Shown piece after piece: positions 6,628 through 28,402 of a stretch of 32,000 nt of DNA. How positions within the stretch are numbered: the stretch's first letter is position 1; every line of letters begins with the position of its first letter. Made by a program: the position numbers and the translations under genes. The notes below the pieces were generated by a model. It did no database searches, was not told the DNA's origin, and saw only the letters and a program-made list of their open reading frames with translations. Origin of the DNA: Kiritimatiella glycovorans (GTDB lineage: Bacteria; Verrucomicrobiota; Kiritimatiellia; Kiritimatiellales; Kiritimatiellaceae); contig NZ_CP010904.1 in NCBI RefSeq assembly GCF_001017655.1, positions 60,001-92,000 on the forward strand, read 5' to 3'.

Positions 6628-6830
6628 GCGAAATCGCTAACGGGATCGGGATTGACCATGAAGGGCACGAAGAGCATGAAGGTTGGCTGAGGGGCTGAAC
6701 ATAATTCGTACTCGTACACGTACGCATACACGGAGCGCCGAAGGCGCGATCCCACTCCCCCCCCTGTTCAAGGAAATCGAGTACGAGTATCGCTTCGCTG
6801 AGTACACGTACGTTGTGACGCCAGCGGATT
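6628..6830 (+). repeat. Modular intergenic repeat, copy A, reference orientation (9-bp-unit box with micro-ORF, hexamer arms, hairpin core, L2 end)
   Basis: Box CCATGAAGGGCACGAAGAGCATGAAGGTTGGCTGAGG at 6656-6692. (CGTACN)n arm from about 6707. Core GGAGCGCCGAAGGCGCGATCCC at 6732-6753. Opposite arm CGAGTACGAGTAT..GAGTACACGTACG. End motif GTTGTGACGCCAGCGGATT. These modules align with copies at about 8.65-8.90, 14.40-14.58 and 18.40-18.70 kb, which are in reverse orientation. Confidence 0.85.
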
Positions 6831-8596: not shown

Positions 8597-8652
8597 CCGC
8601 GGTTCAGGCCAGGCGTTCCTTTCGCCGAGCGGATCCCCGTCGGCGTGTCCTC
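8597..8652 (-). pseudogene. 56-bp scrambled duplicate of the 3' end of the downstream HAD gene (fragment, non-functional)
   Basis: 8597-8618 is identical to 8906-8927, which spans the HAD stop codon. 8618-8652 is identical to 9034-9068 (HAD region encoding EDTPTGIRSAKG). This is the HAD tail with a 106-bp internal deletion, sitting on the far side of repeat copy B. Confidence 0.7.
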
Positions 8653-8897
8653 CTGAGTTCCCCGTCGGGGCACTCAGGATAATATCGTACTCGTACTCGT
8701 ACTCGATTTTCTGATTCCTCCCGCCTCAACCGACCTTCATGCTCTTCATGTCCTTCATGGTCTATCCCACTCCCTCTTACTCTGACCCTGACTCTGACTC
8801 TTACTCTGACTCTGATTCTGATTCTGACTCTGATTCCACTCCTGCATCCCACAAACCACAATATGTACAGGGGTTTTCAGGCAATGTTGAGGTCAGG
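8649..8897 (-). repeat. Modular intergenic repeat, copy B (L1 hairpin, (CGTACT)3, box with micro-ORF, 10-unit hexamer array, terminal 18-mer; lacks the hairpin core)
   Basis: L1 is CCTGAGTTCCCCGTCGGGGCACTCAGG. CGTACT x3 at 8686-8705. Box CCTCAACCGACCTTCATGCTCTTCATGTCCTTCATGG at 8724-8760. CTGCATCCCAC, ACAGGGG, and GGCAATGTTGAGGTCAGG at 8880-8897. Each block is shared with copy D and/or C. Confidence 0.8.
8775..8834. repeat. Hexanucleotide microsatellite (TCTKAY)10 inside repeat copy B
   Basis: Ten tandem units: TCTTAC TCTGAC CCTGAC TCTGAC TCTTAC TCTGAC TCTGAT TCTGAT TCTGAC TCTGAT. The equivalent position in copy C carries a different hexamer array (GATTTC/GACTTC/GATTCG, 14543-14574). Confidence 0.9.
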
Positions 8898-12904: not shown

Positions 12905-14380
12905 ATGAACGTGACGCTACGGTTTTTTGCAGCAATGTTTGCAGTCATTTTCCTTTTCTGCGGACTGGCCGCATCCGGCGGCTCCGAAACCGCCGGGGAA
13001 CTCCCGGGACGGCCCTGGTTCCTGGACGAGCACAACCGCCACTTTATCATGAACGGGGTGGTGATGAACACCGAGGATTCGCGCGGGGATCTTCATTTTC
13101 CGCGCGAAGCCTACGAGCGCATGCGTCCGATGGGGCTCAACGTCCAGGTCGTTCGTCTGCTGTGTCCCCGCCTGGGCGGGTGGCCGGGGACGGAATGGGA
13201 TCCGGAGTACCTGGAGAAGGTTGACCGGCTGGTCCGCCTCGGGCGGGAGGCCGGGATGAAGACGATCTTCAAGATGACGCTCTACGATCTGACCGATGTC
13301 GCCTATGGCAAACTTACAGAAGAGCATTGGGCCCAACTCTTTCTCGACAGGGATGACACTCAGGAGGCCTATCTCGGGGCCTGGATGCGGGTGTTCGAAC
13401 GTTACGCCGACAACTGCGCCGTCTATGGATACGACCTGCTCAACGAGCCGCTCGCGGCGGGCGGGGGTTCGCGCCGCAAGGTGTGGGAGGTCGCGCCCGA
13501 GCTGGGCGGGCCGGAGCGTTTCGAGCGGGAGTATTTCATGCCGCTGTACCGGCGGGTGATCGACCGTCTGCGCGAGATCAGTCCGGATAAGTGGGCCTTC
13601 TTCCAGCCGATGCACGTGACGATTCCCGAGCACATCGAGAGCGGGTTTCCCTGCCACCGGGTCACCATTTCGCCCAGGCGCGACCAGACGGCCTACGCGC
13701 CACACTACTATGGTACGGAGCCGGAAAAGGCTGTAAATCGTTATCTGGAGGACGCCGCCGTGGCCGGCACGCCGCTGTTTATCGGAGAATACGGTCCGGC
13801 GACGAAAGAGCGCACCGACACCAATCTTCAGGCGCAGATCGACTACAAGCTCAACCTCATGCGCACCGTGGAACTTTTGGACCGGAATGTGATCGGGCAT
13901 GTCAAGGCGTGGTGGTGCGGAAGCCGTGTCTACAACGCCAGCGCGCATCAGCGCCATCGGCGCACATGGGCGATTTTCAAGGGCGATTCGCAGGCCCTGG
14001 GGCCGGAGCGCGAATACATTCTGGATGTCATGGCCCGCCCCCGTCCGCTTTTCGTGGCGGGCAAAGTCGGGGCGTTTCACTTTGATTTCGCGACCCGCGT
14101 CTTCGAGATGGAGTTCTCTCCCGGCGCGGCGAGGGGGCCTTCCGAGATCTTTATTCCCGCCGACCGGCACTACCCCGACGGGTTCCGCATTCGCTATCGC
14201 GACCTGGAACTCGCCTGGAACCCGAAGAAACCGCGCGGTTTCAGCGTGGTAAGCAACCCGGAACGCTACAACCGCTGGTTGTTTCGCTGGAATCGCAAGC
14301 AGCAGCGGCTGATCGTAAAGCGCTGGCCCGATCACGAACCCGTGGCGACCCTGCGGGTGGTGCCCGGGTGGAGAGACTGA
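12905..14380 (+). CDS. Secreted glycoside hydrolase family 5 protein
   Basis: GAGGAG RBS before the ATG at 12905. Signal peptide MNVTLRFFAAMFAVIFLFCGLAASGG. GH5 acid/base motif GYDLLNEP and nucleophile motif PLFIGEYG. The 12815 start in the track adds a non-signal extension. Confidence 0.8.
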   Translation: MNVTLRFFAAMFAVIFLFCGLAASGGSETAGELPGRPWFLDEHNRHFIMNGVVMNTEDSRGDLHFPREAYERMRPMGLNVQVVRLLCPRLGGWPGTEWDPEYLEKVDRLVRLGREAGMKTIFKMTLYDLTDVAYGKLTEEHWAQLFLDRDDTQEAYLGAWMRVFERYADNCAVYGYDLLNEPLAAGGGSRRKVWEVAPELGGPERFEREYFMPLYRRVIDRLREISPDKWAFFQPMHVTIPEHIESGFPCHRVTISPRRDQTAYAPHYYGTEPEKAVNRYLEDAAVAGTPLFIGEYGPATKERTDTNLQAQIDYKLNLMRTVELLDRNVIGHVKAWWCGSRVYNASAHQRHRRTWAIFKGDSQALGPEREYILDVMARPRPLFVAGKVGAFHFDFATRVFEMEFSPGAARGPSEIFIPADRHYPDGFRIRYRDLELAWNPKKPRGFSVVSNPERYNRWLFRWNRKQQRLIVKRWPDHEPVATLRVVPGWRD

Positions 14381-14394
14381 GGGGCGGGGTCAGA

Positions 14395-14575
14395 CTCCTG
14401 AGTTCAACATGGGGACACCCGGGGGAATATCGTACTCGTACTCAGCGAAGCGGTACTCGTACTCGAATTCCTTGAATCGATGGATGGGATCGCGCCTTCG
14501 GCGCTCCGAGTACGCGTACGAATTATGTTCTCTCTGAATCCCGATTTCGACTTCGATTCGGATTTCGAGATTTCA
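14395..14575 (-). repeat. Modular intergenic repeat, copy C (L1 end, hexamer arms, hairpin core, alternative hexamer array; lacks the micro-ORF box)
   Basis: CTCCTGAGTT.. L1 end as in copy B. CGTACTCGTACTCAGCGAAGCGGTACTCGTACTCG arm, matching copy A in reverse complement. 14458-14521 is 64/64 identical to 18423-18486 (copy D). GTACGAATTATGTTC junction as in copy A. Hexamer array at 14543-14574. Confidence 0.85.
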
Positions 14576-14601
14576 TCCGTGTCATCGGTGTAATCCGGTG
14601 C

Positions 14602-14625
14602 GCCAAGCAAAGCTTGGCTGTTTCT
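14602..14625 (+). terminator. Perfect 7-bp hairpin followed by a T-rich tract (terminator-like)
   Basis: GCCAAGC-AAA-GCTTGGC followed by TGTTTCT. A second hairpin, GCCGCT-GATCA-AGCGGC (14685-14701), is also followed by a T-rich run. Both lie downstream of GH5 and repeat copy C on the + strand. Confidence 0.35.
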
Positions 14626-15041
14626 AACTGAATGAAAGGAGTCACCCATTAGAGGTTCCGGTCAAACACAAAAGTCCCCTTCGTGCCGCTGATCAAGCGG
14701 CTTCCCTTCATGCCTTGTTTTGATCGGATTCAACCGTCGCCTCAACCGTTGCGTTCCGTACCGTGGTTTTCGTTTGCGGTTGTTTCAGTCACCCATCTGG
14801 TTTTTAGGTGAGGGCGAATCTTTTCCAGATCCATGGCCGCCACCCGTTCTCGTATTGGAGCCAGAAAACCGTTTGTTCCCGCTCGTTGCCTATTCAGTCA
14901 CCGTGGTTCATCTGCACGCAGACTTCCAGACCCTTGAAGGCTGACGACAGGACAGACCGCAAAAGCTGAAGCGATGCCGCCGGTTCCAATCAGTCCGCTG
15001 ATTTAAGCAGACCCCTAGCCGGTTCCCGGCAGCATCGGGTT

Positions 15042-16070
15042 TTAAAACAACATTCCCATTACATATTCCTCCCCGTTCATGACATGCCAAACGGCTTTGG
15101 ACAATTTTGCCGCCAAGGCCTTCTTCGCCACAATCGCGTTGCGCTTTTTCTTCTTCCGGTCATACCAGGATTGAATCTCCGGATAAAAGCGCGGAGCGAA
15201 GCTCGCGGCTTCAACGAAAGCCCATGCGAGAAACGGATTGCCGTTGCGCTTATTGTTCTCACCTTTCTTCCTGCTGTTGGAACTTCGCTCACTTTTGACG
15301 GCGCGGCAGTAGGAGGCGTAGCATCCCGCGTTCGGGAAGCGGGCGAAGTTGCCGCTTTCAAGCACGATGGTCATCCCAAGCGCCTTCCCGATGCCCGGCA
15401 CGGTCTGAACCTGTTCAAACGATGGGTTGGGCTCAATAAACCCCAGCACCGCTGATTCGATCTGTCCGGCCAGCCGCTCACTGCACTGGACCGCCTCAAG
15501 CAACGTGCGGAGTTGAAGCTGTACGAACGGATCAAGGCCCGTCGCCTCGGCATCCGCCTGCGTCCACTGCTGAAGAGCACGCGATCCCGGCGCCTTGAAT
15601 CCGTAACGCTCCAGCAGGCTTTGCAGGCTGAGCATAACCTGGGTGCGCCGCCTGACAAACAGCTGTCGGCGTCGAAGCGCGTCGCGAATCGAACGAACCT
15701 CCTTCGGATAAATGTAGCTCTCCGGGAAAATATCCAATCGGAGCAGTTCGGCCAGCCAACGAGCATCCGATGCGTCATCGGCATGTTTCAACCCCTTGTA
15801 CTGTTTCATCTTCGCCGGATTCCCCAATCGCACGTCCCGGTTCTGCTCACGCAAGCCGTCCACCAGCCAGTACCAGTTGAACGTGGACTCAATCCCCATC
15901 GCCTGAACCTGCGGCCAGTAGGGATCCATCGCCTCATTGACTGCATCGAGCGTGGTTCGTACCCGCCGCCGGAAGACTTCCGTGCCTTCCCGGTCGCAAA
16001 TCGAGAGAAAAACATTGTTTCCATGCAGGTCGGCTCCTGCGTACAATTCCTTTGCGCTGGTCGTTTGCAT
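15042..16070 (-). CDS. IS110-family transposase (DEDD/RuvC-like N-domain + Transposase_20 C-domain)
   Basis: MQTTSAKELYAGADLHGNNVFLSICDREG.. N-terminus. C-terminal VPGIGKALGMTIVLESGNFARFPNAGCYASYCRAV.. SERSSNSRKKGENNKRNGNPFLAWAFVEAA, typical of IS110/IS1111 recombinases. AAAGGAG RBS 7 nt upstream. Confidence 0.9.
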   Translation of the reverse strand: MQTTSAKELYAGADLHGNNVFLSICDREGTEVFRRRVRTTLDAVNEAMDPYWPQVQAMGIESTFNWYWLVDGLREQNRDVRLGNPAKMKQYKGLKHADDASDARWLAELLRLDIFPESYIYPKEVRSIRDALRRRQLFVRRRTQVMLSLQSLLERYGFKAPGSRALQQWTQADAEATGLDPFVQLQLRTLLEAVQCSERLAGQIESAVLGFIEPNPSFEQVQTVPGIGKALGMTIVLESGNFARFPNAGCYASYCRAVKSERSSNSRKKGENNKRNGNPFLAWAFVEAASFAPRFYPEIQSWYDRKKKKRNAIVAKKALAAKLSKAVWHVMNGEEYVMGMLF

Positions 16071-16600
16071 ATCCGGTACTCCTTTCGTTTTTGCTTAAAC
16101 AAAGAGTACGTTGCATTCGACCAGCGTCTATTTCAAAGAACCTCTATATGGTTATCAGTCGTGTGAATTGATCGTTGCACATGTAGCCGACCCAGCGGTG
16201 ATCGGGGGTAACCCCGGCGTCGAAGCCTGGGAAGGCGAACGCGCGAGCCGTAGCGAAAGCGAACTTGATTCAGCCTCGTTACACAAGTCGAGGGCGGCCA
16301 GCCTATCGGATATGATGAAGCCAGCACTTGTCGGGAAGGAACGGTCATATGCACCGGCAAGGCCCTCCGGGGTAACAAGAGATGGCGCGCGCGGAAAGAA
16401 CAGCCAGGAACTTGGGAGACCCGTCGTGATGTCGGGCAAGCCGACAAGCCCGTGGGGGAATCAATAACCTTGGGGGTGGTCATGTGCGGGGGTCGGAGAG
16501 GCTCGTAGTAGTGATGAAGCGGGGTAATGCCCGTGGAGCGAAGGGGCCTCGGCGGAAGACGAGCTGAGTAAGAAGCGCGGGGGACTGATTGGTGAAACCT

Positions 16601-17932
16601 ATGACAGAAGAAGCGACGGAGTACTATCGCATTGACGACAGACTCTTGCCGCCGAAACTCGCCGCGCTGAGACAGAAGCTGAGTCAGAAGGCCAAACAGG
16701 AGAAGCGGTTTCGCTTCTACAGTCTCTATGGCCACATTGGCCGGGCCGACACTCTGCTGGCGGCATGGAAACATGTACGCGCTAACGGCGGAAAAGAAGG
16801 CCCCGATGGTGTGACCATCGAGGACATCGAACAGAGTCAAGGAGGAGTCGAAGCCTTCTTGGCGGATATTGAACGCAGCCTGAAGGATCGAACCTACCGT
16901 GCTGGAAAAGTGCGGCGGGTCTACATCCAGAAGGTGAACGGGAAACTCCGTCCCTTGGGAATACCCTCGGTGCGGGATCGGGTCGTGCAGACCGCTACGG
17001 TTCTGATATTGGAACCGATCTTTGAAGCTGACTTCAAGGACTGCTCCCATGGGTTCCGGCCTGAGCGCTCGGCGCATGATGCGTTGAAGGCGATTGGGCA
17101 GGAGCTCCGGCAAGGGCGGTGTGCGGTGTATGATGCGGATCTGGCCGGCTATTTCGACAGTATTCCACACGACAAGCTCATCGCTTGTGTGCAGATGCGT
17201 GTCACCGACCGGTCCGTGCTGAAGCTGATCCGAATGTGGCTGAAAGCGCCGGTAGAGGAAACGGAGAAAGGCAAACCGCCGACCGTGAAGCGCAACGACA
17301 AGGGCACGCCGCAAGGCGGGGTCATTTCGCCGCTTCTGGCCAACATCTATCTGCACTGGTTCGATGCGGTGTTTTACCGCAAAGACGGACCGGCACGGTG
17401 GGCGAAGGCCAAACTGGTGAGGTACGCCGATGACTTCGTGGTCCTCGCCCGGTATATCGGTCCGCAACTCGAAGCGTTCATCGAAGCCAAGATAGAAGGG
17501 TGGCTCGGGCTGAAGATCAACCGGGACAAGACCCGGATACTCGATGCTCGGGAACCGGGGCAGACGCTGGACTTTCTCGGATATAGCTTCCGCTATGACC
17601 GGGACCTCGGCGGACGCCCGTGCCGGTACTGGAACCTGACACCGTCGCGGAAAGCGCTCCAACGGGAACGTGATCGGCTTCGGGAGATGACCGGACCGGA
17701 ACAATGCTTCAAACCTCTGCCGACGGTGATCGACGAACTCAACATGCAAATGCGAGGATGGGCAAACTACTTCTCGCTGGGTTATCCGCGTGTGGCATTC
17801 CGCCACGTCAATGGATACGTGCGACAGCGTCTCACGCGACATGCGAAACGACGCAGTCAGCGCGGCTACTGGCCCCCTGAAGGTATGAGCTACTACGCGC
17901 ATTTCAAGAACATGGGACTGATCTACCTGTGA
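16601..17932 (+). CDS. Group II intron reverse transcriptase/maturase (no En/HNH domain evident)
   Basis: RT motifs: [52 protein letters not shown], and the YADDFVV catalytic box. Maturase X domain: [11 protein letters not shown]. The product ends shortly after X, with no Zn-finger or HNH. TTG at 16589 and GTG at 16592 are alternative starts. Confidence 0.9.
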
Positions 17933-17958
17933 AACCATCCAACAAATGCCTTCCGCGA

Positions 17959-17991
17959 GAGCCGGATGCGGGAAATCCGCATGTCCGGTTC
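17959..17991 (+). ncRNA. Group II intron domain V (catalytic hairpin)
   Basis: GAGCCGGAUGCGGGAAAUCCGCAUGUCCGGUUC has the AGC triad, a GNRA-type apical loop and a 2-nt bulge. It lies 27 nt after the IEP stop. Confidence 0.85.
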
Positions 17992-18155
17992 GACGAGGGG
18001 GAGGGCAGTCAGCGGTCATTGGCTCTAAGCCTCTCATCCCGTGGCTCCCTCTCTACTCTACTGGCCGAAAACACAAGAAAGGTCTCTCGCCAAGGCGCAG
18101 AGATCGCAAAGATGAATGAGAAGAGCACAGGCAAAGAAATGGTGCGTTCTCTCTT

Positions 18156-18252
18156 ACGTTCGTAGTAGGCCCGCAGGTCCGCGCAGCGGGGCCAGGGCCG
18201 TTATCTTCACGCGCCTTGGCCCTTCGGGCGCTTACGGCGCTACTACGAACGT
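18156..18252. other. 97-nt structured element: perfect 13-bp closing stem around three GC-rich sub-hairpins
   Basis: ACGTTCGTAGTAG (18156-18168) is the exact reverse complement of CTACTACGAACGT (18240-18252). Internal hairpins are CCCGC..GCGGG, GGCCAGGG..CCTTGGCC (one G-T, so it favours + strand RNA) and C-TTCG-G. Function unknown. Confidence 0.4.
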
Positions 18253-18398
18253 TTGTCGTCTCCCATCCCGACCCCGGCATGATCTGTGACCGTTGTGGTG
18301 AATCCCCATCCCGCCTCTTCCCCGAACGGCTCCACCACAAAAATCTACGAAGAACCGGATTTTTGTAGAACTACTGAAATCGTAGCGGCTGGATTAGA

Positions 18399-18700
18399 AA
18401 TCCGCTTGCGTCACAACGCACGCGTACTCGAATTCCTTGAATCGATGGATGGGATCGCGCCTTCGGCGCTCCGAGTACGCGTACGAGTACGAGTACGAGT
18501 ATATGTCCCCCTCCTCAACCAACCTTCATGTTCTTCATGGTTCTCTCTCCCCTCCGATCTGCCGCATCCCACCTTTCCCGGGAACCCTTCCATAAAAATC
18601 CACGAATAACCCTTTTTTCCGCCGGGACACCCTGATTCAAAACTCACTTCAATGATCACAGGGGGATTCGAGCGCGTCTTCGGGCAATGTTGAAGTCAGG
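18399..18700 (-). repeat. Modular intergenic repeat, copy D (L2 end, hairpin core, (GAGTAC)5 arm, box with micro-ORF, terminal 18-mer)
   Basis: AATCCGCTTGCGTCACAACG L2 end as in copy A. 64-bp core identical to copy C. GAGTAC-type hexamers at 18473-18502. Box CCTCAACCAACCTTCATGTTCTTCATGG at 18513-18540. CCGCATCCCAC, ACAGGGG, and GGCAATGTTGAAGTCAGG at 18683-18700, as in copy B. Confidence 0.85.
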
Positions 18701-19594
18701 AATGGTCGGAGCGATATCGACCGCCGAGACCGGTTCCGCGCGGCGCTGTCCGGCCTTCACCCCTTTCGGCCAGCGGATGACCAGCGGCACGCGAATGCCG
18801 GCGTCGTAGAGATACGGTTTGCTGCGGATAAATCCGGGGCCCTGGTCGCCGGTGACGATGATCATCGTCTCGTCGAGGACGCCGCGTGTTTCGAGCCGTT
18901 CGAGCAGAAGCCCGATGCCCGCGTCCGCGCGTTCGACCTCGTTGTAGTAGCCGGCGACCTCTTTTCGCAGCGCCGGGTCGTCGATGCCGCCGAGGAAATC
19001 CCACGCCGTTACATCCTCCGCCCCGCGCGGATGCGCCGGGAAACCGTTACGCTGATCCTCAAACGGGGTGTGCGGATCGACGTAGGCGTACCAGATGAAG
19101 AAGGGTTTATCGCCCGCCTGCTGCCTGTAACGATCGGCGATCGTGACCATGCGTGCGTTGTCGCTGCCGACCGGCGTCGCAAAATCGAAGTCGGGGAACC
19201 CGTGCGGGTTCATGTGCAACTTGCCGGTCGAACGAAGATCGTATCCCGCGGCGCGAAGCCAGTCGACCAGGCACGGCGTTCCGTCGTGTACGGCGTATCC
19301 GCTCACGGTCAGCCCGACCTGGCCGTTCGCATGCGGGTAGATTCCGGTGATCATCGCACTGCGCGAGGGACTGCACGAGGGCTGGGCACAGTAGGCGACC
19401 TCGAAGAGCGTGCCCTCGCGCGCGAGGCGGTCGATGTTCGGCGTCCGCGCCTGCGGGTCGCCGTAACATCCGCACTGATTGCCCATATCGTCCGTGACGA
19501 TCAGGATCACGTTCGGCGCCTTTTTCTCCTCCGCGGCACCCAGCGGCAGTGCCGCCGCACAGGCGGCGGCCGTCAGATATTCACGTCGTTTCAT
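18656..19594 (-). CDS. Sulfatase (formylglycine-dependent arylsulfatase family), apparently C-terminally truncated; possible pseudogene
   Basis: Signal peptide MKRREYLTAAACAAALPLGAA. NVILIVTDDMG metal site. CSPSRSAMITG (CxPxR FGly motif). The ORF stops at 312 aa, right after VDIAPTI, the point where family members normally continue for roughly 150 more residues. The last 14-16 codons lie in repeat copy D. Confidence 0.75.
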   Translation of the reverse strand: MKRREYLTAAACAAALPLGAAEEKKAPNVILIVTDDMGNQCGCYGDPQARTPNIDRLAREGTLFEVAYCAQPSCSPSRSAMITGIYPHANGQVGLTVSGYAVHDGTPCLVDWLRAAGYDLRSTGKLHMNPHGFPDFDFATPVGSDNARMVTIADRYRQQAGDKPFFIWYAYVDPHTPFEDQRNGFPAHPRGAEDVTAWDFLGGIDDPALRKEVAGYYNEVERADAGIGLLLERLETRGVLDETMIIVTGDQGPGFIRSKPYLYDAGIRVPLVIRWPKGVKAGQRRAEPVSAVDIAPTIPDFNIARRRARIPL

Positions 19595-28326: not shown

Positions 28327-28402
28327 GGCGAGATAGCTCAGTTGGTAGAGCAGAGGATTGAAAATCCTTGTGTCCCCGGTTCGATTCCGGGTCTCGCCAC
28401 CA
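28327..28402 (+). tRNA. tRNA-Phe: tRNA-Phe (anticodon GAA), CCA encoded
   Basis: Cloverleaf read by hand. Acceptor GGCGAGA/TCTCGCC. D arm GCTC-AGTTGGTA-GAGC. Anticodon arm GAGGA-TTGAAAA-TCCTT (GAA). T arm CCCGG-TTCGATT-CCGGG. Discriminator A plus CCA. Confidence 0.9.

What the first reader, a model, noticed from the sequence alone, without database searches (positions are those of the whole stretch)
16071..18398. Group II intron inserted antisense into the 5' non-coding arm of an IS110 element, where a bridge/guide RNA would be expected
IS110-family recombinases use a structured non-coding RNA (bridge RNA) encoded in the long non-coding end of the element. That end is upstream of the recombinase in the IS110 subgroup and downstream in IS1111.

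Here the intron 5' end (GTGTG, 16161) lies only 90 nt upstream of the transposase ATG at 16070 and on the opposite strand. Roughly 340 nt of structured, non-coding DNA (18062-18398) continues beyond the intron up to repeat copy D. If that DNA belongs to the IS left end, the candidate bridge-RNA locus is split by an intron that cannot be spliced from the transposase-strand transcript. That would be a nested mobile-element arrangement that probably disables or uncouples the IS.

Alternatively, the about 390-nt 3' non-coding region (14650-15041) could hold the guide RNA, as in IS1111. It contains internal direct word repeats: TTCAGTCACC at about 14795 and 14893, and CCGTGGTT, CGTTTG and CATCTG twice each. 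The intron 5' exon also ends in TATCAGTC.
Basis: inference. Interest (0 to 1): 0.65.

Follow-up and report, generated by a model that had tools for sequence, protein, structure and literature searches.

The report
Insertion sequence nested inside an intron

Summary
Both elements are real, but the proposed arrangement is reversed.

**IS limits.** Twelve independent relatives of the IS (63-96% transposase identity) place it at about 14643-16157. That gives 1,513 nt, an 85-nt 5' end and a 397-nt 3' non-coding arm. It has 9-bp subterminal inverted repeats, so it is IS1111-type.

**Intron limits.** Five uninterrupted relatives of the intron join window 14598-14644 directly to 16158 onward. Their homology starts at GTGCG (14598), not at GTGTG (16161). 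In six of six introns the last 5-7 exon bases before GTGCG pair with compensating changes in an intron loop (EBS1, 16307-16313). The intron therefore spans 14598-18061, and the IS sits antisense about 47 nt inside it.

**Region 18062-18398.** This stretch is not IS DNA.

**Guide RNA.** It is intact in the 3' arm.
- A covariation-supported stem-loop (14973-15036) has two strands that match the two target flanks.
- A second loop (14784-14871) matches the IS ends. Its 3' strand tracks the right junction in 24 of 26 distant relatives.

**Target.** The intron site is near-cognate, with one G:T wobble.

**Verdict.** This is a new member of known kinds and of low interest.

The parts
14591..14597 (+). 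IBS1: the last 7 nt of the true 5' exon (TAATCCG)
   Evidence: ATCCG pairs with EBS1. Six of six related introns show compensating changes at this pairing.
14598..14644 (+). Group II intron, 5' segment. It starts with GTGCG and includes the hairpin GCCAAGC-AAA-GCTTGGC. The IS cuts it off from the rest of the intron.
   Evidence: In L167, L168, L169, L172 and L173 this segment is contiguous with the sequence that follows the IS in the window. Homology among these loci begins at GTGCG.
14643..16157 (-). IS1111-type insertion sequence of 1,513 nt counting one copy of the core. TG(A) is repeated at both junctions, so the boundaries are ambiguous by 3 nt.
   Evidence: Homology to 12 independent IS copies starts at 16155-16160 and ends at 14641-14651. 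Comparison with the empty site confirms the limits.
14650..14658 (-). Right subterminal inverted repeat (GAACCTCTA), followed by the terminal extension ATGGG
   Evidence: It is the reverse complement of the left repeat at 16138-16146.
16138..16146 (-). Left subterminal inverted repeat (TAGAGGTTC), preceded by the terminal extension ATAACCATA
15042..16070 (-). Transposase ORF, 342 aa, intact
   Evidence: Pfam PF01548 and PF02371. NF033542. Full-length alignment at 96% identity to P0002.
14645..15041 (-). 3' non-coding arm that encodes the bridge/seek RNA
   Evidence: Conserved blocks across relatives. MFE z-score -2.97.
14973..15036 (-). SL1, the target-binding loop. Its 5' strand is CUAGGGGUC (15010-15018). 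Its 3' strand is GGACUGAUUGG (14986-14996).
   Evidence: Model R1 finds 32 copies, all just downstream of a transposase gene. Of 19 base pairs, 15 show compensatory changes, and 93.5% of cells are paired against 76% in shuffles. The two strands match the flanks and covary with them.
14887..14942 (-). SL2, a third guide-like loop found only in the close subfamily; role unknown
14784..14871 (-). SL3, the donor-binding loop (multi-branched). Its 5' strand is CGGUUUUCUGG (14861-14871). Its 3' strand is GAUGGGUGACUGAA (14784-14797).
   Evidence: The 3' strand is identical to the right end plus the core plus 2 flank nt. The 4-mer after GGG matches the right junction in 24 of 26 distant loci, as TGAC, TGCC or TGTC. 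Shuffles average 11.2 matches with a maximum of 19. L093 and L019/L022 also covary.
16158..18061 (+). Group II intron, main segment: the rest of domain I, domains II-IV with the IEP ORF, D5 and D6. It ends in CTAC.
   Evidence: Rfam hits. The 3' boundary is shared by five relatives.
16307..16313 (+). EBS1 (CGGAUAU)
   Evidence: It covaries with IBS1 in six of six introns.
16589..17932 (+). Intron-encoded reverse transcriptase/maturase, 447 aa, intact. No family library reported a nuclease domain.
   Evidence: RVT_1 and GIIM domains. TIGR04416. 92% identity to P0121. The closest solved relative is GsI-IIC RT.
18062..18398 (.). The intron's 3' flank, which is not part of the IS. It holds a roughly 100-nt hairpin at 18153-18255.
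   Evidence: No match to any IS relative and none elsewhere in the window. Inverted repeat I8. Fold z-scores are -3.0 on + and -1.9 on -.

Best explanation
A bacterial group II intron first settled in the intergenic DNA between a GH5 gene and a sulfatase gene. It is about 1,951 nt long, and its reverse transcriptase/maturase shows no recognised nuclease domain. Its true limits are 14598 (GTGCG) and 18061 (CTAC).

Later, a 1.5-kb IS1111-type insertion sequence integrated into the intron in antisense orientation, about 47 nt from the intron's 5' end. In transposase orientation the site reads CACAC-GAC-TG-ACTCCTTTC.

The IS chooses its sites with an RNA encoded downstream of its transposase gene.
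- In one stem-loop (SL1), the 5' strand AGGGGUC pairs with the top strand of the right half of the target.
- The 3' strand of SL1, GGAC-UG-AU, is identical to the left half of the target plus the TG core, so it would pair with the bottom strand.
- A second loop (SL3) reads the IS's own ends in the same way.

The family's preferred site is (G)GAC-TG-ACCCCTTT. The intron site differs at one position, which still allows a G:T wobble, so this is a near-cognate hit and not intron-specific homing.

Shown here: the element boundaries, the empty sites, the order of events, the RNA structure, and the covariation of guide strands with flanks.

Inferred: that the RNA is made and bound by the transposase, that the IS is still mobile, and that splitting domain I by 1.5 kb stops the intron from splicing and moving.
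For: **IS limits**
- blastn of seven relatives against the window starts at 16155-16161. For the six copies that align through the 3' arm it stops at 14630-14651. L001, the most distant copy (64% aa identity), loses nucleotide alignment at 14857.
- The junction table for 12 copies shows variable left flanks and a shared left and right end.
- Many relatives are IS-only contigs of about 1.5 kb, with 84-100 nt upstream and about 400 nt downstream of the gene.

**IS inside the intron**
- L167, L168 and L169 join window 14592-14644 directly to 16155 onward.
- The sequences read ...GGAGTCAGTC(A/G)TGTGAATTG.
- Homology begins at GTGCG.
- The IBS1:EBS1 pairs are ATCCG:CGGAT, ATCTG:CAGAT, CTCTCCG:CGGAGAG, CCTTTTG:CAAAAGG, CATTCG:CGAATG and CTTTCG:CGAAAG.

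**IS1111 type**
- It has a 9-bp subterminal inverted repeat, a long 3' arm and a 342-aa transposase.
- These match the criteria given in PMC11187229 and PMC11208160.

**Guide RNA**
- SL1 structure shows covariation.
- The SL1 5' strand pairs with the right flank over 7-10 positions in every copy that has a flank. The changes are matched in L093 (GUAGGGGUU with AACCCCTAC) and L090.
- The SL1 3' strand tracks the left flank: GAGC in L093, GGGC in L086, GGC in L001.
- The SL3 3' strand tracks the right junction in 24 of 26 distant loci.

**Integrity**
- Both ORFs are full length.
Against: - No expression, splicing or transposition data exist for this locus.
- The window's own genome could not be searched for other copies, so the empty site is inferred from 83-91% identical introns in other samples.
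- The SL3 5' strand is only an imperfect complement of the left end (7 of 9).
- Three copies (L085, L091, L092) do not match their SL1 3' strand at the left flank.
- L084 and L086 have altered right termini.
- SL2 is unexplained.
- The roughly 55 nt between GTGCG and the basal stem of domain I is unusually long for a group II intron. Its structural role is unknown, so the claim that the insertion inactivates the ribozyme is an inference.
Confidence: 0.88

Rival explanations
1. First reader's reading. The intron retrohomed into the long 5' non-coding arm of an IS110-type element, and 18062-18398 is the rest of that arm. On this view the intron splits the bridge-RNA locus.
For: - The intron-like sequence starts immediately next to the IS end.
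- A perfect 7-nt complement (GACTGAT, intron nt 423-429) to the last 7 nt of the IS end exists.
- The stretch 18062-18398 folds somewhat better than shuffled sequence.
Against: - All 12 IS relatives end at 16155-16160 and none contains anything like 18062-18398.
- The GACTGAT match lies after domain I closes, so it is not in an EBS position.
- Uninterrupted introns carry 14598-14644 in place of the IS.
- The IS has its guide RNA in the 3' arm.
Confidence: 0.02
2. The intron really begins at 16161. The IS inserted exactly at the exon-intron boundary, and 14598-14644 is a conserved 5' exon such as a hairpin-containing homing site, not intron sequence.
For: - The Rfam D1-D4 model begins only at 16155.
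- The window has a canonical GTGTG at 16161.
- The upstream stretch contains a hairpin, as the homing sites of class C introns do.
Against: - Five relatives have ATGTG at that position, which lacks the near-invariant G1.
- All six loci share GTGCG at the upstream site, and their sequences diverge immediately 5' of it.
- EBS1 covaries with the bases before GTGCG in six of six introns.
- No convincing EBS match exists for ...AAAGGAGTC.
Confidence: 0.04
3. The juxtaposition is an assembly chimera of two repeated elements and not a real insertion.
For: Both elements are multi-copy repeats that usually break metagenome assemblies. Most relatives sit on contigs of 1.5-2.3 kb.
Against: - The junctions have the exact signature of IS110-family integration: complete ends, one core copy on each side, and a near-cognate target.
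- The collection lists the window's own transposase (P0001) on a 2.95-Mb contig.
- An independent 96% copy (L081) shows the same kind of insertion in another intron.
Confidence: 0.03

Closest known systems
IS1111-group insertion sequences with a 3' seekRNA / bridge RNA (ISEc11, ISPa11, ISKpn4; PMC11187229; IS1111 section of PMC11208160)
   Same: - A DEDD transposase of 330-350 aa.
- Subterminal inverted repeats with terminal extensions.
- A short 5' end and a long 3' non-coding arm.
- An RNA with one strand complementary to the top strand and one to the bottom strand of the target. The two overlap at the core, and the top-strand match is 5' of the bottom-strand match.
- Donor-binding nucleotides that sit in a multi-branched loop.
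   Different: - No named close relative was found. The best named hit is the ISGsu4 family, at about 39% identity.
- The preferred target, (G)GAC-TG-ACCCCTTT, differs from the attC, REP or Tn21-IR targets described for named members.
- The close subfamily has an extra guide-like loop (SL2).
- RNA production and binding to the transposase were not tested.
IS621 bridge RNA (IS110 group; PMC11208160, PMC11208158)
   Same: - Two loops, one for the target and one for the donor.
- Each loop reads both strands around a 2-nt core.
- Two bases next to the core-reading part of a strand match the partner DNA after exchange, which resembles the handshake guides of IS621.
   Different: - The RNA is encoded 3' of the recombinase instead of 5'.
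- The order of the top-strand and bottom-strand guides is reversed.
- The core is TG and not CT.
- The subterminal repeats are long.
- The transposase gives no sequence-level match to any solved structure.
Nested group II intron / IS pairs such as RmInt1 in ISRm2011-2 (PMC4238363, PMC3035460; intron/IS tandems in PMC3522654)
   Same: Two selfish elements are nested in non-essential DNA, and both keep intact ORFs.
   Different: In the described cases the intron sits inside the IS and uses it as a homing site. Here the IS sits inside the intron, in domain I, and probably disables it.
Bacterial group II introns of Rfam subfamily D1-D4-6 whose RT/maturase shows no nuclease domain (closest solved RT: GsI-IIC, 6ar1)
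   Same: - GUGCG at the 5' end and AC at the 3' end.
- D5-D6 present.
- RT plus X domains.
- EBS1-IBS1 pairing.
- A compact ribozyme of about 600 nt outside the ORF.
   Different: - About 55 nt, including a hairpin, lie between GUGCG and the basal stem of domain I.
- The structural class (IIB-like or IIC-like) was not settled here.

Membership tests
IS110 family (DEDD RNA-guided transposases) | An N-terminal DEDD/RuvC-like domain plus the C-terminal PF02371 domain | tested here: met
   PF01548 at 7.4e-14 and PF02371 at 7.2e-12. NF033542 scores 168.6 bits against a cutoff of 140.
IS1111 group | Subterminal inverted repeats of 7-17 bp with terminal extensions | tested here: met
   TAGAGGTTC at 16138-16146 and GAACCTCTA at 14650-14658. 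The extensions are ATAACCATA on the left and ATGGG on the right.
IS1111 group | The long non-coding region lies downstream of the transposase gene and the 5' end is short | tested here: met
   397 nt downstream against 85 nt upstream. Relatives have the same layout.
IS1111 group | Transposase length of 330-350 aa | tested here: met
   342 aa.
IS1111 group | Phylogenetic placement with ISfinder IS1111 members, and the C-terminal GL-P----S/TG motif | not tested
   No ISfinder set was available. No clear SG/TG motif was seen by eye in the C-terminal region, and no alignment to reference members was made.
Bridge RNA / seekRNA | A conserved structured RNA in the non-coding arm | tested here: met
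   In SL1, 15 of 19 pairs show compensatory changes. 93.5% of cells are paired, against 76% in shuffles and 26-46% in slid controls. The whole arm has a z-score of -2.97.
Bridge RNA / seekRNA | [quoted passage not shown] | tested here: met
   The SL1 5' strand pairs with the right flank over 7-10 positions. The SL1 3' strand equals the left flank plus the core. Matched changes occur in L093, L090, L086 and L001.
Bridge RNA / seekRNA | A second loop matches the element's own ends (donor) | tested here: met
   The SL3 3' strand equals the right end plus the core plus 2 nt, and 24 of 26 distant loci covary. The 5' strand is complementary to the left end at only 7 of 9 positions.
Bridge RNA / seekRNA | The RNA is transcribed, binds the transposase and is needed for transposition | not testable with these tools
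   Requires small-RNA sequencing, co-purification and transposition assays.
Group II intron | GUGYG at the 5' end and AY at the 3' end | tested here: met
   GTGCG at 14598 and ...CTAC at 18061. Five relatives share both boundaries.
Group II intron | Domains V and VI, and a domain I-IV core | tested here: met
   RF00029 scores 50.6 bits and RF02005 scores 69.5 bits.
Group II intron | EBS1-IBS1 pairing with the 5' exon | tested here: met
   Six of six introns have different IBS1 sequences matched by EBS1.
Group II intron | An intron-encoded RT/maturase in domain IV | tested here: met
   RVT_1 and GIIM domains. TIGR04416 scores 364 bits.
Group II intron | Splicing and retrohoming activity | not testable with these tools
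   The IS splits domain I. Activity is predicted to be lost but was not measured.
Group II intron class C (IIC) | Insertion just after a terminator-like hairpin, a short IBS1 and no EBS2 | tested here: inconclusive
   The closest solved RT is GsI-IIC, and IBS1 is 5-7 nt. No clear hairpin was identified just upstream of 14598, and EBS2 was not examined.

The most novel reading that the evidence does not exclude
The close subfamily of this IS (63-96% transposase identity) carries a third guide-like loop, SL2 (14887-14942). It is built like the target loop. Its 5' strand resembles the right-target guide, and its 3' strand resembles the right-end guide. SL2 could therefore read the integrated right junction, which would serve excision, or it could give the element a second target specificity.

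This may fit with another observation. Both known insertions of the 96%-identical lineage sit antisense in unrelated group II introns, at wobble-tolerated near-cognate sites. The lineage might thus have a relaxed, dual-specificity targeting mode that lets it use other mobile elements as safe havens.
Probability: 0.1. Interest if true: 0.55.

Novelty: new member of a known kind. Interest (0 to 1): 0.25.

Why it matters
- **Annotation.** The intron is 14598-18061, interrupted by an IS. The IS is complete and carries its own guide RNA, so neither a broken bridge-RNA locus nor an uncoupled IS needs to be invoked.
- **A natural covariation data set.** The analysis gives a data set for an unnamed IS1111-type clade: about 100 loci with a defined target loop, donor loop, 2-nt core and handshake-like positions. 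It also gives a natural example of integration at a near-cognate site through a G:T wobble. This bears on off-target rules for bridge and seek recombinases.
- **Biology.** It is one more case of selfish elements nesting in each other, here with the less commonly described polarity of an IS inside an intron.

Tried and rejected
1. **Intron homed next to the IS end.** The idea rested on a perfect 7-nt complement, GACTGAT, at intron nt 423-429. I rejected it because that site lies after domain I closes and because empty-site copies show otherwise.
2. **IS inserted exactly at the exon-intron junction.** This was my own interim model. I rejected it once homology was seen to reach GTGCG and EBS1 was found to covary with the bases before it.
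3. **Rfam bridge-RNA families.** A search of 14380-18450 at E <= 1 found none.
4. **The window's own transposase in the assembly index.** The exact-sequence lookup found nothing, so other copies in the same genome could not be examined.
5. **Sequence search of solved structures with the transposase.** No hit.
6. **A 3-nt core (TGA).** Relatives with TG-CC or TG-TC at the right junction but TG-AT at the left show the shared core is TG.
7. **SL2 read as a right-junction loop.** It does not covary in L093 or L090, so its role is left open.
8. **Intron-specific targeting.**
   - The second intron insertion (L081) is at an unrelated site, in a short RT-fragment/maturase ORF.
   - Empty sites in L170 and L171 suggest another near-cognate site (GGAC-TG-ATCCC), not a shared intron motif.
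9. **The 64-nt perfect direct repeat bracketing the region as a target duplication.** Not supported. The repeat belongs to a dispersed repeat family.
Full report
**What is at the locus.** Rfam finds group II intron pieces on the + strand: RF02005 at 16155-16383 and RF00029 (domains V-VI) at 17957-18061. An intact 447-aa ORF lies between them at 16589-17932. It carries RVT_1 and GIIM domains and matches TIGR04416. On the - strand, 15042-16070 encodes a 342-aa protein with the two IS110-family domains and matches NF033542.

**Where the IS ends.**
- A scan of species-representative genomes and of metagenomes returned more than 160 loci with relatives of the transposase.
- A protein search found closer relatives, up to 96% identity, and their contigs were fetched.
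- blastn of seven of these against the window starts at 16155-16161 in every case. It stops at 14630-14651 for the six copies that align through the 3' arm. L001, the most distant copy (64% aa identity), loses nucleotide alignment at 14857.
- A junction table for 12 independent copies shows unrelated left flanks followed by (GAC)TGATAACCATATAGAGGTTC. The right end is ...TTTGACCGGAACCTCTAATGGG TG.
- Many relatives are IS-only contigs of about 1.5 kb, with 84-100 nt before the gene and about 400 nt after it.
- The element has a 9-bp subterminal inverted repeat (TAGAGGTTC / GAACCTCTA) set back from both tips.
- Short 5' end, long 3' arm, subterminal repeats and a 342-aa transposase are the published marks of the IS1111 group (PMC11187229; PMC11208160).
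- Nothing resembling 18062-18398 occurs in any IS copy.

**Where the intron begins.**
- I looked for relatives of the intron-encoded protein and fetched five contigs: L167, L168, L169, L172 and L173.
- For L167, L168 and L169, blastn joins the sequence matching window 16155 onward directly to a sequence matching window 14592-14644, at 89-98% identity. The read-outs of L172 and L173 show the same contiguous 5' segment.
- The joined sequence is ...GGTGCGCCAAGCAAAGCTTGGCTGTTTCTAACTGAATGAAAGGAGTCAGTC(A/G)TGTGAATTGATCG....
- The six loci diverge completely just 5' of GTGCG.
- The last exon bases before GTGCG differ in all six loci, and each is matched by a change in one intron loop. The pairs are ATCCG:CGGAT (window), ATCTG:CAGAT, CTCTCCG:CGGAGAG, CCTTTTG:CAAAAGG, CATTCG:CGAATG and CTTTCG:CGAAAG.
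- This is the EBS1-IBS1 pairing, and it fixes the 5' splice site at 14597|14598.
- The intron is 1,951 nt once the IS is removed.

**The insertion.** In transposase orientation the empty site reads CACA(T/C)-GAC-TGA-CTCCTTTC. The occupied site reads CACAC-GAC-[TGA-TAACC...AATGGG]-TGA-CTCCTTTC. Relatives with TG-CC or TG-TC at the right junction but TG-AT at the left show that the shared core is TG. The IS is 1,513 nt and lies about 47 nt inside the intron, between the 5' hairpin region and the basal stem of domain I. The order of events is therefore intron first and IS second.

**The guide RNA.** The 3' arm aligns in conserved blocks across relatives. It folds better than shuffled sequence, with z = -2.97.

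*SL1 (14973-15036).*
- It was modelled as a covariance model, which found 32 copies, all just downstream of a transposase gene.
- Of 19 pairs, 15 show compensatory changes. 93.5% of cells are paired, against 76% in shuffles and 26-46% when the partner is slid.
- Its 5' strand, (A)AAGGGGUC, is the complement of the conserved right flank G-ACCCCTTT.
- Its 3' strand, GGAC-UG-AU, equals the left flank plus the core plus the first two bases of the IS.
- The strands change together with the flanks. In L093, GUAGGGGUU goes with AACCCCTAC and GAGC with GAGC. In L090, UUGGGGUC goes with GACCCCA. L086 has GGGC and L001 has GGC.
- This is the arrangement described for IS1111 seekRNAs: the top-strand match lies 5' of the bottom-strand match, and they overlap at the core.

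*SL3 (14784-14871).*
- Its 3' strand, AUGGG-UG-AC, is identical to the right end plus the core plus two flank bases.
- In 26 distant loci where both could be read, the four bases after GGG agree in 24, as TGAC, TGCC or TGTC. Shuffles average 11.2 matches with a maximum of 19.
- L093 (TGAA) and L019/L022 (TGGC) also agree.
- Its 5' strand, GGUUUUC, is an imperfect complement of the left end, G-ATAACC. Clades with ATAATC mostly have GAUUUUC instead.
- I read SL1 as the target-binding loop and SL3 as the donor-binding loop.
- The two bases after the core in each 3' strand behave like the handshake positions of IS621 (PMC11208158). That last point is an analogy and not a test.

**Why this site.** The family consensus target is (G)GAC-TG-ACCCCTTT. 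The intron offers GAC-TG-ACTCCTTT. Pairing with AGGGGUC gives six Watson-Crick pairs and one G:T wobble.

A 96% identical IS copy (L081) sits antisense in the ORF of an unrelated group II intron. That ORF is a short RT-fragment/maturase gene, and RF00029 matches just downstream of it. Relatives of that ORF suggest its empty site was about GGAC-TG-ATCCC, which is again near-cognate. The two intron sites share only the IS target core. I therefore read both as near-cognate hits in multi-copy DNA and not as intron-directed homing.

**Consequences (inferred).** The IS has complete ends, an intact gene and all RNA blocks, so it is probably mobile. Joining its ends would create TTGACC-N16-GATAAC, which resembles a sigma-70 promoter. 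That reading comes from the sequence alone. The intron keeps its ORF and domains V-VI, but domain I is split by 1.5 kb of antisense DNA, which should stop splicing and retrohoming. Precise excision of the IS would restore the intron.

**Verdict.** The fallback idea of a 3' guide RNA, as in IS1111, is right. This is a new, unnamed member of known kinds. The closest named transposase family is ISGsu4, at about 39% identity. The closest solved RT is GsI-IIC. Interest is low.

Noticed in passing
window 6669-6830 (-), 8650-8774 (+), 14395-14530 (+), 18399-18560 (+): A dispersed intergenic repeat family with runs of the hexamer GTACGA. The two copies that bracket the intron share a 64-nt stretch that is 100% identical (14458-14521 = 18423-18486), whereas other copies are about 85% alike.
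   Followed up: partly
window 18656-19594 (-): The sulfatase ORF is only 312 aa. Its C-terminal subdomain is cut short (SGSH_C profile positions 8-50 of 154), and the ORF ends at the repeat copy at about 18560-18660. It may have been truncated by the repeat or the mobile-element cluster.
   Followed up: no
window 18153-18255: A long imperfect hairpin of about 100 nt (arms ACGTTCGTAGTAGG... / ...CTACTACGAACGT) in the intron's 3' flank. It has no match in the IS relatives or elsewhere in the window.
   Followed up: partly
window 14887-14942 (-): SL2, a third loop in the IS 3' arm, is present only in the close subfamily (14 loci). Its 5' strand, CAAGGGUC, resembles the target guide. Its 3' strand, GGUGACUGAAUAGG, resembles the right-end guide. 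It does not covary with the flanks in L093 or L090.
   Followed up: partly
L085 6427-6460; L088 3923-3950: Just after the IS right end, the core plus the right half of the target is duplicated in tandem: TGACCCCTTTTCTTTTT TGACCCCTTTTTT in L085 and TGACCCCTTCAC TGACCCCTTCAC in L088. This could be a footprint of an earlier insertion or excision.
   Followed up: no
L081 1-698: A 96% identical IS copy interrupts, antisense, the ORF of an unrelated group II intron. That ORF belongs to a family of short proteins of about 218 aa (RT fragment plus maturase).
   Followed up: yes
L084 1582-3000; L086 6427-7420: In these two IS relatives the last 7 nt of the right end (AATGGGT) are replaced, and another transposase gene lies next door (a 457-aa IS110-family gene and a DDE_3 gene). 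The right tips were probably lost to later insertions.
   Followed up: no
L024, L028, L031, L034, L043 and many loci at 40-50% identity: The right-flank motif GACCCC(T/A)TT and the end sequences TGATAATCAT... / ...TAATGGG are conserved across a very wide clade that includes Pseudoalteromonas. The clade seems to share one target type, and its genomic identity is unknown.
   Followed up: partly
window 14654-14665 with 16150-16157 (-): Joining the right and left ends would give TTGACC-N16-GATAAC (GATAAT in relatives). This resembles a sigma-70 promoter that exists only in the circular form.
   Followed up: no
window 28327-28399 (+): A tRNA gene (Rfam 73 bits). The anticodon loop reads GAA, which would be tRNA-Phe.
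   Followed up: no
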